The position numbers are program-made. 64,000 bases of DNA from NCBI RefSeq assembly GCF_006345805.1, contig NC_042997.1:125860001-125924000 (forward strand). The letters are read 5' to 3'. Shown here piece by piece: positions 18,978-27,900 of this stretch. Positions within the stretch are counted from its first letter, which is position 1; every line of letters starts with the position of its first letter. The stretch comes from Octopus sinensis. Lineage: Eukaryota.

Positions 18978-21900
18978 CCATTTTGTAATTCTGCATATAA
19001 CAGTGATCATTTTACAATGTTTCATGGTGTTTTAGCCTCCAATGAAAGAAAATTAACCAGCCCAGAATGTATACCCCAATCCCCATTTCCCTCCCGACAG
19101 ACAATTCCAACTCTTAACCCTAACCCAAACCACTTTTGCTGCTGCTCTTCATCTCAACTATTTCAGTGATTTGCATTCTAGTAATGAACAACAATGAATC
19201 AAGCAATGAAGTCAGGGTCTTCATCGCTATCGCCGTCATCTTCACTGTCACTCAGACGACGACGTTTCTTGCGCACCTTCTTCTTAACAGGAGGTTTTGG
19301 AGTTAACTTGGGAGACGGTTTGATTTTCTTTTTCTTTTCAAGTAAAGAAGCGTAATGCTGATTACGAGGAGTGTGATGAAATGATGGTTGTTGCTGGCTT
19401 CGAGGTTTGATCCCATCAGAGCCATCTGAAACTTTATCAGAGACTTGCATTTCAGTGGCGTCTTTAGACTCGACATGATTCTCAGCTCCTTCAGGTACCG
19501 AGCTCTTTGTATGTGGACTGGTTTTGACATTGTCGTCAGAGTCATCATCATCTGGAGGGTCAATACTCAACATTAAATGTTTGAAATCAATGAATTCTTC
19601 AACCAATTTTCGTTTCTCTTCATCACTAATAACATCTGATGGCTTTTTCTTTAGTAACTCAATAGTTGAGCTTGGTTGAAAATCTATAGCATATTTCCTT
19701 GCCAAGGGCTTATCATAAACTTTAGCTGCTTCTGCCGGTGAATAACGATGGACTTTCGTGTCGGTGAAACCATATAACTCTTTGAGATGCTGTTTCAGGA
19801 CAAGAAGCAGGACACATCCTTGAGAGATGCGGCAAATCTCCTGCAGCGGCATCACGTTCTCAGGTAATCTTTCCATGATGCTTTCAATTTCTTCATCATC
19901 TTCATCATCAAATGTTTCCCCTTTCTTTCTATCAATATCCTTCCTTGGAAGAAGGCATTCTTTGAAAGACTGTAGCAGGTTAGAGCCAGACACTGAGACA
20001 ATGATGTCTATTTGATGAATGATAAATAATGGTTCGTCTTGAGATTGGTAAGCGAAAAAGGCAAGGTTATCAGCTATATACAAGAGTTCTTCAAGTGATG
20101 CACGTGCCGAATCATCAAACAGATTCAGAAGGGAAGTGAGTAAAGCTCTTCGATAGGTTCGATTAGCTCGAAGAACTGTATAAAGGAATGCATTTAAACT
20201 AAGATGGACAGCATCCTGGGTCCTAAGGCCTCGAACTGGCTCTGAAGGATCTTGAATGATACTTTGGAATTTATATGACATCTTTACACCTTGTAGAGCC
20301 TTCATATGAATGAACCCAGGATACTTCTTATCAATATCTTGAAGTTGTTGATCTGATCTCACCCTCACGCTTGGATCTATTTCTGTTCCCATTGTTATTA
20401 AATAGGGAACACACTGTACAGGGTGAATGAGACCCTGGCGAAGAACAAGCTGAATAATATCAAGAGCAGACTGTCGTACCTGGAAATTGGCACAAATGAA
20501 AGATTCAAGCACTTGTTTCAGGTACACCTGTATGATGGTGCTCGCCATTCCTGACTGTAAATCTCCCATGTCTCGTAGATCTTCTGCTTTACATTGTTTT
20601 CTCCATTCAGCATCAGCTATGATCATCTTGGTTTCTTCTTCGACCAGATAGCTGTGCAGATTTCGCAATGCTTGGATCTTCAGCTTTATAGATGCTTCAC
20701 TGTTTGTAAAGAGATAATAATAGAGTCCTTTCAGTGTTTTTCCAAGCATATATTCATAATGACGGACACACATGAAGCCAAGCCCAGTCAAAGCTTTTAC
20801 ACGCACTTCCTCGTCTTCGTGCTCAATAAAATAGTACAGAACATCAAATACTCGGTCCTTTATCGGAACTTTTGCTTTTGTCTCTCCCATCTCCTTGGAA
20901 TCAAAATCAAAATGACGGCACAAAAGGCCAACAGTGAAAAGTGACCGCAGCAATGTAGGTCTTCTCTTTTGAAGGGTTGGATTGTTAGAATTTTCTTTGT
21001 GGTCAGCCATCAACTTGGAAAGAACTCCAAAGAATTTCTGGAAACAATCTTTAACAAGTCGATAATTATGACTGACATTATTAACAACGGCACCAAGGCA
21101 GCTGACACAGCTCTGTAAAACCATCATTCCATGTTTTAGAATCAACTTCATCATGTCTTCCTCGAGTTGTGCCAAAAACGTTTCACTCGGATGGTCCATA
21201 AGAGGCACCACCATCTCAAGAATACGTGCAACAAAATGCAGCACCATAACGTCACCTTGTGTGTTACATCTGATATTTAAATATGGCTGAAGTGTTATTG
21301 CATGTTGAACCATGAGATCAGGTTTAATCTTGCTGAAGAGATGTAGTGTGGTCAAACATGCTATCAAACGCTGAGGATGAGAAGTATTATCACCATCCAC
21401 TGACTTTTCTTCTAAGCTCATGACATTTTCAACAAGGCAGTTAACAATTTGCTGAGAAGCCAACAAAGCACTCTTATTATAGTGACCGTCATCATCTTTT
21501 TTTAACAAATTTTCCAGTAAATGTTCAAAGAACTCCAAACCACTATCTTTACAGGCAGCAACAACTTCTGTAATATTCACAACACGTCTCAAAAGTCTGG
21601 AAGAGTCTTTCTCTCGTAAAGGACAAAACCACATCATTTGGAAAACCTCGTTGACTAGTTTTTTTATGCCTTCTTCATCGTTTACTCTGCGGATCATTTT
21701 CACACACATCTCAGGTATTTTGTTAAAATCAGGTTGTCCGAGGCAAATGTCTTTGAAAATCTTTATCACTCTTTTTCTTACACTGATACCTGTATCGAGA
21801 ATTCGATCACATAACATGTCGTAATATTTAGGGATCAATTCAGGTTTAATCAGTATGAACTTTCCAACAAGTTCTACTGCCGCTTCTCGGACAGATGTCG

Positions 21901-24900: not shown

Positions 24901-27900
24901 GGGGTTGTGGGTGAAGTAAGTGCTGCTGCTGCTGTTGCTGCCTGGTTTGAATGAAGTTTGCAGACTGCTGCTGCGATAGGTTCTGATGGGCTGTTCGACT
25001 GTCAAAACCTCGAACATCAAATCCACTGCCACTACTACTACTACTGCTACTACTACTACTACTACTACTGGCAGTGGAAGTAGTTGTAGTAATGTTACCA
25101 CCGACACCAGCAGTAGTGGTGGTAGCATTGTTAGTTTTAGTATGAAAAACACTGGGGTTCTGTCGAAGAACCATTTTTAACAGATCAGGGATATCTCCTT
25201 CTATGGCATCACTCGCTAAACTGTCCTTTAATTCAATGTGATCTGTAGAAGTTTGTTTCAGAGCATGAGCAAGCTGCTGAGCTAGTGTTTCATCGTGAGT
25301 CTCAAGTATTTTTCGAGCGTCATCAGCAATTTTCGGATTAAAGAGGAGACTTTTATTGTGCATAGCTGGGGAGAGAGGTGTTGGCAGGGGAAGCTCAGGC
25401 AGTAAGTCTGTAAGACTAGTTACTCCTGCCAATGTTATAATAGGAACACTTGGAATTTCGCCGTTCATCATGCGATTCAATACATCGCTTCTGCTACATG
25501 CCACTACATCTTGAACAACCATCTTTTAGTATTCCTGCTATGGTAATTCCATCAAATTGGTCCCCAAAATTGTCATTTAAAACACAAACGCAACTGCTGA
25601 CACTGCCCAAAAACTGGTTCTTCGTTAATGGCATAAAGACAATTTTCACTCACTGAGCTTTTGAAAAAATTCTGTTGAAAGTATTGTTGTACTTGGCACT
25701 TCACTGATTTTTGACAGTTTAAAACTTGTCATCAATATATACAACTGATTGGCTGGAGTTCAATTTTTGTTTGGAGAGCGGTAGAGAGTTTTAATGTTTC
25801 TGCTTTGTTTTTCGATTAAAATAAATCAGAATCAGAAATGAAAAATAAGGAAGCTTCAGAATAATTCTAGCCAAATTTCTGTTACTTGGAAGTATGAAAG
25901 TTTGATAAAAACATGTGTGATATTTATTCAACGTTTGTTAAGAGTTCAGACAAGAATTTCGTTCAGAGAATCTTCCTTAAAGCAATCTCCTGAGCAACGA
26001 TTTAAAAAGTAAAGGATTTAAAGAGTACAAACTATTTTACTAAACTCTTTATCAATGATATTTTCGTCCTGGTGTGTTTCCATAGTTATCTTTAAAAATA
26101 AGTGTAAGCTGGAGGTAGATAAGAGAAAACAGGAAAGTAGGAATTGATTACAACACAAACGGGATTCAAAACAAACCCGATGTCAATGTCGCTGGAGGTT
26201 GCAGGTTCAATCCTGTTATGGTTATATCAAAAATGTAGAAATGCCTAATCCTTTAGTATAACTTTGATCGGCCGGGGACGTTAACAATAGTAAATTTACT
26301 GCTGATATTCCGTGTCCGAGTGAGAAACTATAAAACCATCATCTCCGACTGTGGTCTTACTTCCGGTTTAAGGTCAGCTGAAGCAACTTAATCAGTTCTT
26401 AATTATATTTAGTCAGTTTCTTATTTCGGGACGTTTATTTATTTATTTAATGCTGCTACTACAACTTCTAGTGGTGATGGTGGTGACAGTGATAGGTGAA
26501 TTTTACTTAGTCCGTGATTAAGTGAGATCGATTTCAAGACACGTTATATCCGAATGGAATAAGAACGGAACTGACATATAAACATTAATCTCTCCTCACA
26601 ACTTTAGGAGATATAATAAACTATAAAACACGTTGGTAGAGAATAAAAAACGAGGATGATACAGATAAAATGTCTCCAAAAATGAGAGGAAATTGTTATT
26701 TGAAAAGAGAGATCAGGGTATCCCGGCATAAGTCTTTGATAGGACGTATGTTACATACTTGTAAATATCAATTCAACTGAGAACGATGGGAAGGAGGAGG
26801 GGGGATTGCACTGTTGAGTATTTTAGATGTTTATATATAATATATATACGTGTGCGTGTGTATATGGATTTGGTATGTGGAAACGGAGAAGATAATCAGT
26901 GTTTCGATTCTGGAGGTCGTAGTGGTCGATTGTAATATTCCTAGTGCGATTAAACTACATTGGTCCGTTTGTAGCGTTTTCTTTTAAACAGAAGATCAAA
27001 TAATGTCGGTGGATAGAAGCAAAACAGAGTGTCAGGAGAAAAAGACAACAATTATTGAGAAATGAGAAAACATTACCTGAGGTCTGTAGCGACAGTTTTT
27101 GTTTGTTTTGTTTTTTTTCTATTGTGTTTGTTGTTAATGAAGAAGTAATAAGTGGCGATGTGTTTGTTTTCGTTCACATCCTCTTCGTTTCATAAACAAA
27201 CACACACACACATATACGCTCACACACAGTCACATTTATAGACTCACAGCCATGTTCACACACACACACGCATACACCGAAGCACTCACACACACACACT
27301 CTCACTTCTGGCTTTCACATACACAATATGGCGTCGTGGTGGCGGTGTTGGACAATTAAAGAAGAGTTACTGTTTTTAACTTCTTTGCTCTGTTGTGTTT
27401 GGATGTTCCACTTCTGCAGACTTATAAATAAAGAATCTTTTGATAGATATCAATACAGTTTGCAATGAAAACAATAGATTAGACAAATATTCTCCTTGCT
27501 CAGTCTTTTCACTATATTCAGTGTTGATCTGTATAAGAGTGTGTGACACCCTACCAGGTTTTACGGCCTCCACCAAACTCCAAACAATAACAGCAACAAC
27601 AAACAGACATCAAATAGAATAGTTCAGGTTTTAAATCAATAATCAGTCCACATTGTTCCTGTCTAATTCTTCTCATCATCGTTTCGTTAACGTTTCTTCT
27701 TCCTCGTTTTTTGATGTTTTCTTCAAAACTAATGTTGTTAGAATCGCCTATTTTCTGGACTTTGTCCGGGTTCTTCACTTATTATTTCCATTCCTGTAGA
27801 GAAAGTAAACATCCAGGAGTTGGTTGTGTGGTAGGGCTGCAGAGATGGGACGAGCGTTAATTAAAAGATAATGAGAAGATAAAAAGAGCGAGTCGGGTAG

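What the first reader, a model, noticed from the sequence alone, without database searches (positions are those of the whole stretch)
19199..25522. Intronless 6.3-kb NIPBL coding sequence
Human NIPBL has 47 exons and other animal orthologs are typically multi-exon. Here the entire CDS is one intact ORF with all conserved blocks, in a repeat-rich genome where long introns would be expected. This suggests retroposition with functional replacement of the parent gene, or wholesale RT-mediated intron loss, in an essential genome-architecture gene.
Basis: partly seen in the sequence, partly recalled or inferred. Interest (0 to 1): 0.72.

Follow-up and report, generated by a model that had tools for sequence, protein, structure and literature searches.

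The report
Intronless octopod NIPBL, likely ancient retrogene
An octopod genome encodes its whole cohesin-loader protein (NIPBL) in one uninterrupted 6.3-kb reading frame, most likely because an mRNA copy was pasted back into the genome before octopuses and cuttlefish diverged; cuttlefish still keep a second NIPBL copy that has introns.

Summary
Window 19199-25522 (minus strand) is one 2107-codon ORF and the only ATG-started ORF of at least 200 aa in 64 kb. It is a full-length NIPBL/Nipped-B. It carries Pfam Nipped-B_C and Cohesin_HEAT, matches human NIPBL structures at E=0, and is collinear with orthologues from the conserved N-terminus to the conserved C-terminal end. The closest protein is Argonauta hians NIPBL at 89% identity, so the window is octopod, not human.

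Relatives have introns where this ORF reads through. One genomic ORF is 100% identical to Pomacea NIPBL and loses similarity exactly after the residue matching K1287. The cuttlefish Acanthosepion has two NIPBL records only 74% identical. One is orthologous to this gene. The other, called B-type here, branches before the octopod/decapodiform split (AU p=2.3e-5) and appears as exon-limited fragments.

The best reading is an old, conserved, functional retrogene. Whether octopods lost the intron-bearing parent is unresolved, because no eukaryote genome DNA could be searched. UTR introns, expression and synteny are untested. I found no paper describing this.

The parts
19199..25522 (-). Complete NIPBL/Nipped-B coding sequence in one ORF (2107 aa plus TGA stop at 19199-19201)
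   Evidence: ORF; Pfam; human NIPBL structures, E=0; end-to-end collinearity
25163..25522 (-). Residues 1-120. A 17-residue N-terminal extension is shared with the Argonauta and unnamed decapodiform-like A-type proteins. It is followed by the conserved N-terminal block, which in human NIPBL is the MAU2-binding end (recalled, not tested).
   Evidence: alignment; 116 of 120 residues identical to Argonauta
19880..23950 (-). Residues 525-1881, the HEAT-repeat body matching solved human NIPBL chains
   Evidence: 6wg3_E, query 525-1881 against chain 18-1344, 1684.7 bits
21866..21991 (-). Cohesin_HEAT repeat (PF12765), residues 1178-1219
   Evidence: E=2.2e-13
20000..20545 (-). Nipped-B_C domain (PF12830), residues 1660-1841
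   Evidence: E=8.5e-51, full profile 1-186 of 186
21659..21664 (-). Codons K1287-K1288, read through here. In gastropod-like relatives an intron is inferred between the two equivalent codons.
   Evidence: P0215-P0217, P0219 and P0220 (5 of 5) match to residue 1287 and then continue with V plus unrelated residues. P0215 is 100% identical to Pomacea P0013 1113-1204.
23348..23593 (-). Residues 644-725, continuous here. They are equivalent to one exon-limited ORF of the B-type paralogue.
   Evidence: P0223 is 95% identical to P0005 424-505 and 81-82% to A-types. Unrelated residues flank the match (18 N-terminal, pyrimidine-tract-like; 2-3 C-terminal).
22142..22147 (-). Codons 1126-1127, read through here. 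A B-type fragment ORF stops at the equivalent point.
   Evidence: P0244 is 100% identical to P0005 846-899 and then ends, while P0005 continues
18777..18827 (-). A-rich tract 372-422 nt downstream of the stop, in gene sense. AATAAA motifs begin at 18868 and 18819. It may be a present-day polyadenylation region. A poly(A) relic is possible but unproven.
   Evidence: 5 such tracts on the minus strand and 0 on the plus strand in 64 kb; (sequence)
27075..27140 (-). Unverified candidate end of a non-coding 5' exon: a consensus-like donor (CAG|GTAATG, GT at 27076-27075). A weak candidate acceptor (..CATAG|) ends at 25538, 15 nt before the ATG.
38006..39852 (-). Decayed LINE remnant (endonuclease plus reverse transcriptase pieces in separate frames). 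It shows that RT-encoding elements are resident near the gene. It is not part of the gene.
   Evidence: RVT_1 5.5e-08, Exo_endo_phos_2 2.4e-11, Exo_endo_phos 0.0028

Best explanation
The ORF is the octopod orthologue of a cephalopod NIPBL gene I call A-type. It encodes the cohesin loader, a HEAT-repeat protein that in other animals works with MAU2 and stimulates cohesin's ATPase for DNA loading and loop extrusion (established knowledge).

Its coding sequence most likely lacks introns because A-type arose by retroposition. A fully spliced NIPBL mRNA of at least about 6.5 kb was reverse-transcribed, plausibly by LINE machinery, and inserted into the genome. This happened after cephalopods split from gastropods and bivalves and before octopods and decapodiforms diverged. 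The copy acquired a promoter and has been kept under strong purifying selection ever since.

The intron-bearing parent (B-type) persists at least in cuttlefish. Its fate in octopods is open.

Shown:
- the one-ORF CDS;
- NIPBL identity;
- the old duplication;
- similar conservation of both copies;
- intron-type breaks in B-type and in a gastropod at places this ORF reads through.

Inferred:
- retroposition as the mechanism;
- LINE machinery as the RT source;
- current expression;
- loss or retention of B-type in octopods.
For: (1) One ORF holds the full-length CDS.
(2) It is a NIPBL family member. Nipped-B_C scores 8.5e-51 and Cohesin_HEAT 2.2e-13, and human NIPBL chains match at E=0.
(3) It is sister to Argonauta NIPBL (89-91% identity) with 100% support.
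(4) Acanthosepion P0004 and P0005 are 74% identical over 1648 aa.
(5) P0005 is sister to all four A-type rows. Support is SH-aLRT 100 in the 21-row tree and UFboot/aLRT 100/100 in the 12-row tree. Forcing a decapodiform-only clade costs 73.6 lnL, p-AU 2.3e-5.
(6) B-type fragments are exon-limited. P0223 carries a pyrimidine-tract-like N-flank and an abrupt C-end. P0244 stops where P0005 continues.
(7) A gastropod intron is inferred at K1287|K1288. All 5 of 5 records break there, and one is 100% identical to Pomacea.
(8) Constraint is similar in both copies. Of 539 columns invariant in 7 outgroups, the window changes 30 of 539 and B-type changes 33 of 538. Window-versus-Argonauta identity is 96.7% (residues 1-120), 86.9% (121-520), 92.3% (521-1990) and 70.1% (1991-2107).
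(9) RT-encoding LINE remnants lie in the same window.
(10) The concept has precedent: retrogene replacement and 'orphaned retrogenes', and retrogenes gaining 5' UTR introns (PMC5803294, passages read).
Against: - No classical retroposition scar is demonstrable. The A-rich tract after the stop is one of 5 in the window and could be an ordinary polyadenylation region. No target-site duplication stands out: the best exact flank repeats are 8-12 nt, reached by 274, 23 and 152 of 300 shuffles. After a split I recall as more than 200 My old, such scars should be gone, so this neither helps nor hurts.
- The intron evidence for B-type and Pomacea comes from where protein similarity stops in short ORF records (3 of them unnamed B-type or ambiguous records), not from DNA or transcripts.
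- I could not see the exon structure of any A-type orthologue in squid or cuttlefish. I also could not see the locus of either paralogue, so relocation is untested.
- The AU-tested group was named after the first tree had been seen, and the mixture-model AU run did not finish.
- P0004, the cuttlefish A-type model, lacks the first ~290 residues and has an unrelated N-terminus. This could mean a model error, or some exon structure there.
Confidence: 0.65

Rival explanations
1. DNA-based duplication of NIPBL in the cephalopod stem, followed by wholesale intron loss in one copy at its own locus. The mechanism would be recombination or gene conversion with a reverse-transcribed spliced mRNA.
For: The duplication itself is shown. 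No retroposition scars were found. Synteny, the test that separates the two models, could not be run.
Against: It needs the same RT step plus a duplication. It must also remove every coding intron of a gene that has 47 exons in human (claim seen only as a search listing), while the sister copy keeps introns. A single retroposition explains duplication and intron loss in one event.
Confidence: 0.2
2. Ancient state: molluscan or cephalopod NIPBL was always intron-poor, and nothing happened in this lineage.
For: None from my calls. No outgroup gene structure could be inspected directly.
Against: Five of 5 gastropod-like genomic ORFs break after the same residue, and one is 100% identical to Pomacea. 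B-type fragments are exon-limited. NCBI lists 'isoform X1-X3' for many gastropod and bivalve NIPBLs but none for Argonauta (names only).
Confidence: 0.03
3. Artefact or dead copy: cDNA contamination or misassembly, or a processed pseudogene, while a spliced gene does the work.
For: A spliced paralogue class (B-type) exists in cephalopods, and expression of this locus was not tested.
Against: The ORF is intact over 2107 codons (chance about 1e-49). It sits inside 64 kb of gap-free repeat-rich sequence. The Argonauta orthologue lies on a 138-Mb contig. Conservation is domain-structured, with 509 of 539 outgroup-invariant columns kept. A-type is retained in both octopod and decapodiform lineages.
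Confidence: 0.02

Closest known systems
Human NIPBL / Drosophila Nipped-B / yeast Scc2 (cohesin loader; PDB 6wg3_E, 6wge_E, 7w1m_E, 5t8v_A, 6yuf_D)
   Same: Same family and architecture: a conserved N-terminal block, a disordered low-complexity region, and a HEAT-repeat body with Cohesin_HEAT and Nipped-B_C.
   Different: At 2107 aa it is shorter than the roughly 2200-2950 aa vertebrate proteins listed. The coding sequence is uninterrupted, whereas human NIPBL is described as having 47 exons (listing only).
Retrogene replacement / 'orphaned retrogenes', e.g. amphioxus SYCP1 (PMC5803294; passages read)
   Same: A single coding exon in a lineage whose relatives have multi-exon genes. The copy is conserved across species and is presumably the working copy. 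A non-coding 5' exon is possible.
   Different: Here the presumptive parent is still present in at least one related lineage (cuttlefish), so 'replacement' is unproven. The CDS of 6.3 kb compares with a 3121-bp amplified SYCP1 coding product in that paper. No transcript or synteny data are available here.
Teleost nipbla/nipblb duplicates (recalled; the 'A'/'B' in NCBI names follow that nomenclature)
   Same: Two retained NIPBL paralogues in one lineage.
   Different: The teleost pair stems from whole-genome duplication and both keep introns (recalled, not tested). The cephalopod pair is independent, since both copies fall inside the cephalopod clade, and one copy is intronless.

Membership tests
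NIPBL / Nipped-B / Scc2 cohesin loader | Nipped-B_C domain (PF12830) | tested here: met
   173.1 bits against a cutoff of 26.4, profile 1-186 of 186, residues 1660-1841
NIPBL / Nipped-B / Scc2 cohesin loader | Cohesin_HEAT repeat (PF12765) | tested here: met
   50.7 bits against a cutoff of 21, residues 1178-1219
NIPBL / Nipped-B / Scc2 cohesin loader | Long collinear match to experimentally solved loaders | tested here: met
   7 of 7 listed hits are loaders. Human NIPBL matches at E=0 over query 525-1881 or 526-1989. Fungal Scc2/Mis4 match at 2.8e-50 to 1.2e-15.
NIPBL / Nipped-B / Scc2 cohesin loader | Conserved N-terminal block (MAU2-binding in human; recalled) | tested here: inconclusive
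   The sequence block is present and conserved (116 of 120 identical to Argonauta). Binding was not tested and no complex prediction was run.
NIPBL / Nipped-B / Scc2 cohesin loader | Orthology by phylogeny | tested here: met
   nested in a molluscan NIPBL clade and sister to Argonauta with 100% support
Processed retrogene | Absence of introns at positions where relatives have them | tested here: met
   inferred breaks at window residues 1287|1288 (gastropod), about 643|644 and about 725|726, and 1126|1127 (B-type). All are read through by the ORF. The breaks are inferred from protein ORF limits, not from DNA.
Processed retrogene | An intron-containing parental paralogue exists | tested here: inconclusive
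   Found in cuttlefish (P0005 plus fragments P0223 and P0244). Not found for any octopod. The window's own genome could not be searched, and there is no second copy inside the window.
Processed retrogene | Poly(A) remnant after the 3' UTR | tested here: inconclusive
   the A-rich tract at 18827-18777 lies 35 nt after an AATAAA, but it is one of 5 such tracts on this strand
Processed retrogene | Flanking target-site duplications | tested here: not met
   the longest exact flank repeats are 8, 12 and 9 nt, reached by 274, 23 and 152 of 300 shuffles. Erasure is expected at this age, so this is weak evidence against membership.
Processed retrogene | Location different from the parental locus | not testable with these tools
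   No eukaryotic genome collection was available. The flanks hold only TE debris and low-complexity DNA.
Orphan retrogene (retrogene replacement) | Parental gene absent from the same genome | not testable with these tools

The most novel reading that the evidence does not exclude
Coleoid cephalopods ancestrally carried two cohesin loaders: the intron-rich parent and a retrogene copy more than 200 My old. Octopods have since lost the parent and run cohesin loading, an essential and dosage-sensitive function in other animals, solely from a 6.3-kb orphan retrogene with a newly acquired promoter. The timing falls on the branch where coleoid genomes were massively reorganised, so the loader duplication may have been part of how their 3D genome regulation changed.
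Probability: 0.4. Interest if true: 0.72.

Novelty: new member of a known kind. Interest (0 to 1): 0.55.

Why it matters
NIPBL is the limiting factor for cohesin loading and loop extrusion. In mammals heterozygous loss causes Cornelia de Lange syndrome (abstracts listed).

A full-length retrogene of such a long, dosage-sensitive gene, kept for the whole history of coleoids, would be an unusually large and old functional retrocopy. The discovery of a second, intron-bearing NIPBL in cuttlefish means cephalopods may have two loaders with divided roles, or may have swapped one for the other in octopods.

Either outcome is directly testable with existing genomes and RNA-seq. It bears on current work on coleoid 3D genome architecture. 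That work discusses CTCF and cohesin but does not mention NIPBL: there were 0 occurrences in PMC13652810 and PMC9023564.

Tried and rejected
- **Cluster members.** The listing of cluster members was meant to show the window protein's own cluster and the isoforms of outgroup genes.
- **AU test with the mixture model.** The run on 21 rows did not finish. I replaced it with a 12-row LG+G4 test.
- **Neighbouring genes for synteny.** Pfam on 115 flank ORFs of at least 80 aa (of 122 non-low-complexity ones; 7 in the 17.1-18.2 kb microsatellite block were left out) gave only RT and endonuclease pieces, one PHD-finger-like hit and one weak chance-level hit. Atlas look-ups of the 305-aa and 184-aa ORFs gave nothing above 0.84. 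Synteny therefore could not be addressed.
- **Second NIPBL in the window.** tblastn of P0005 and P0006 found nothing outside the ORF below E=1.
- **Target-site duplications and poly(A).** Both were uninformative.
- **Rfam and tRNA scans.** Both returned 0 hits.
- **Solemya velum split models.** These were looked at as possible evidence for a multi-exon bivalve gene. Their locus-tag order is not collinear with the protein, so I draw nothing from them.
- **P0239 and P0242.** They break after the residue matching V962, but they cannot be assigned to B-type rather than another mollusc (92.6% against 91.2% identity).
- **Unnamed short hits of 66-89% identity.** I did not fetch them, because I could not exclude a human or vertebrate origin. 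Some could have been A-type or B-type exon fragments, so this stays unchecked.
- **Literature.** No paper on NIPBL gene structure or duplication in cephalopods was found with these term sets: NIPBL+cephalopod (1 paper, unrelated), retrogene+octopus (15), cohesin+cephalopod+CTCF (19), intronless+Octopus bimaculoides (14), NIPBL+intronless (4), retrocopies+cephalopod (3). These are judged from titles and abstract starts. Supplements were not opened.
- **Models and closed collections.** The CDS is one ORF, and the candidate 5' exon was only read by eye. The closed collections (metagenome contigs, viral contigs) and the prokaryotic genome contigs were not used.
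Full report
**1. The observation**

Window 19199-25522 holds a single open reading frame on the minus strand of 2107 codons plus a TGA stop. It is the only ORF of at least 200 aa with a start codon in the 64-kb window (1 of 1). The next longest stop-to-stop frame is 305 aa, and that one runs through a (TA)n microsatellite. Given the stop-codon frequency of the flanks (0.052), a frame this long has a chance probability near 1e-49. The window contains no N.

**2. What it encodes**

Pfam finds Nipped-B_C (8.5e-51, complete profile) and Cohesin_HEAT (2.2e-13). All 7 of 7 PDB sequence hits are cohesin loaders. Human NIPBL matches at E=0 over residues 525-1881 or 526-1989.

In an 8-row alignment the ORF is collinear with cephalopod, gastropod, bivalve and brachiopod NIPBL, from the conserved N-terminal block to the conserved ...DPDF-x-x C-terminus. 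The only length differences from the nearest relative are in homopolymer runs. The complete CDS is therefore in one exon, and no in-frame intron hides in it.

The first 17 residues before the conserved start region are shared with Argonauta and with an unnamed decapodiform-like protein (P0003). The ATG at 25522 is therefore probably the real start.

**3. Whose genome**

The best hit is Argonauta hians 'nipped-B-like protein A' (89% identity, 98% coverage, 2121 aa), and the two are sisters with 100% support. The window is therefore octopod, with the species not determined. It is not human.

No Octopus-named protein appeared in any search.

**4. Do relatives have introns where this ORF is continuous?**

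No eukaryotic genome DNA was available, so I used short ORF-type protein records that come from genomic contigs.

- Five of 5 gastropod-like records match NIPBL up to the residue equivalent to K1287. Each then continues with V (a GTN codon, as a phase-0 GT donor would give) followed by unrelated residues.
- One of these five (P0215) is 100% identical to Pomacea canaliculata NIPBL over 92 residues before the break.

NCBI names with 'isoform X1-X3' for many gastropod and bivalve NIPBLs, and none for Argonauta, point the same way but are only names.

**5. An unexpected second NIPBL in cephalopods**

The cuttlefish Acanthosepion pharaonis has two NIPBL records, P0004 and P0005, on different contigs. 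They are only 74% identical over 1648 aa.

- In a 21-row tree (1837 columns, quick search, SH-aLRT) all five cephalopod rows form a clade (100). P0005 is sister (100) to a group made of (window, Argonauta) and (P0003, P0004).
- A 12-row careful tree gives 100/100 for the same nodes.
- Forcing P0003+P0004+P0005 into one clade costs 73.6 log-likelihood units (p-AU 2.3e-5). Two caveats apply. The group was chosen after seeing the first tree, and the mixture-model version of the test did not finish.

The duplication therefore predates the octopod/decapodiform split. I call the window's orthology group A-type and P0005 B-type.

**6. B-type has introns**

- P0223 (103 aa, from a 131-kb contig) is 95% identical to P0005 residues 424-505 but only 81-82% identical to A-types. 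The match is preceded by 18 unrelated residues that look like a translated pyrimidine tract. It ends abruptly 2-3 residues before the ORF stop.
- P0244 is 100% identical to P0005 846-899 and then stops where P0005 continues.

The window reads straight through both equivalent places (residues 644-725 and 1126|1127). P0239 and P0242 show another break (after V962) but cannot be assigned to B-type with confidence.

**7. Both copies are constrained**

Of 539 columns invariant in seven non-cephalopod outgroups, the window differs at 30 of 539 and B-type at 33 of 538. Six changes are shared by all A-types only, and 11 are private to B-type. Branch lengths since the duplication are similar, at about 0.26-0.29 against 0.22-0.26.

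Window-versus-Argonauta identity follows the domain structure: 96.7% for residues 1-120, 86.9% for 121-520, 92.3% for 521-1990 and 70.1% for the C-terminal tail. This is what a working gene looks like, not a pseudogene.

**8. Mechanism**

The simplest account of an old duplicate pair, with one copy free of introns and the other carrying them, is RNA-based duplication. A spliced NIPBL mRNA was reverse-transcribed and inserted in the cephalopod stem lineage, giving A-type. This would have happened before a split I recall as more than 200 My old (no call supports the date). B-type is the parent. LINE remnants with endonuclease and RT pieces lie in the window, so the machinery is native to the genome.

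Classical scars are not recoverable:

- The A-rich tract 372-422 nt after the stop (18827-18777), 35 nt after an AATAAA, is one of 5 such tracts on this strand.
- No flank repeat exceeds chance.

At this age neither absence counts much.

Upstream I see a consensus-like splice donor near 27077|27076 and a weak acceptor 15 nt before the ATG. Retrogenes often gain non-coding 5' exons when they recruit a promoter (PMC5803294, passages). Without transcripts this remains a guess. I built no spliced model and joined nothing.

**9. What stays open**

- *Did octopods lose B-type?* No octopod B-type protein appears among the listed hits (120 each) or the 97 hits, although the Argonauta proteome is represented. 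This covers annotated proteins only, is subject to the search's word index, and is not a genome search.
- *Is A-type intronless in decapodiforms?* P0003 is a 2105-aa ORF on a 7.4-kb contig of unknown molecule type. P0004 lacks the first ~290 residues and has an unrelated N-terminus.
- *Is A-type relocated?* The flanks contain only TE debris, a PHD-finger-like ORF and microsatellites. No outgroup loci could be fetched.
- *Unfetched hits.* Unnamed hits of 66-89% identity were left unfetched because I could not rule out a vertebrate or human origin. They might include informative exon fragments.

**10. Comparison and novelty**

The protein is an ordinary NIPBL. The gene structure fits the known category of functional retrogenes. 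If the parent is gone in octopods, it also fits 'retrogene replacement' or 'orphaned retrogenes', as in amphioxus SYCP1 (PMC5803294).

I found no paper on NIPBL structure or duplication in cephalopods in six searches (titles and abstract starts). Two coleoid 3D-genome papers do not mention NIPBL (0 occurrences). The figure of 47 exons for human NIPBL rests on a search listing only (23 papers hold both terms).

**Verdict:** this is a real feature and a new member of a known kind. It carries a noteworthy twist, the old cephalopod NIPBL paralogue pair, which makes the replacement question directly testable.

Noticed in passing
window 25472-25522 (-), residues 1-17: A 17-residue extension precedes the conserved NIPBL start block. 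It is shared by the window, Argonauta and the unnamed decapodiform-like P0003 (20 of 22 positions identical between the window and P0003 by my own count of the aligned rows 1-22 printed). It is absent from gastropod, bivalve and brachiopod proteins, so it may be an A-type-specific addition.
   Followed up: partly
window 24.4-25.1 kb (-), residues ~135-300: Poly-S, poly-T and poly-Q runs in the disordered N-terminal region differ in length between the window and Argonauta, for example a 14-residue Q/H-rich insertion in Argonauta.
   Followed up: no
window 30536-30949 (-): A 138-aa stop-to-stop frame has a PHD-finger match (E=3.2e-06, 27.5 bits against a cutoff of 24) about 5 kb upstream of the NIPBL start on the same strand. 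It could be an exon of a neighbouring gene or part of a transposon.
   Followed up: no
window 38006-39852 (-) and 3339-3638 (-): Decayed non-LTR retrotransposon pieces: endonuclease and reverse transcriptase fragments in different frames.
   Followed up: partly
window 63487-63694: A tandem repeat of a 62-67-nt GC-richer unit, about 3 copies at 86-88% match, lies next to a 480-bp (TA)n array. No Rfam or tRNA match was found anywhere in the window.
   Followed up: no
whole window: A-rich tracts (>=80% A over 30 nt) are strand-asymmetric, with 5 on the minus strand and 0 on the plus strand. Three lie within 3 kb downstream of the NIPBL stop and one lies in the candidate 5' exon region at 27125-27096.
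   Followed up: partly
proteins P0148, P0178, P0199 (Solemya velum): The bivalve Solemya velum has its NIPBL split over three gene models on one 151-Mb contig. Their locus-tag order (C-terminal, N-terminal, middle) is not collinear with the protein, which suggests an annotation or assembly problem there.
   Followed up: no
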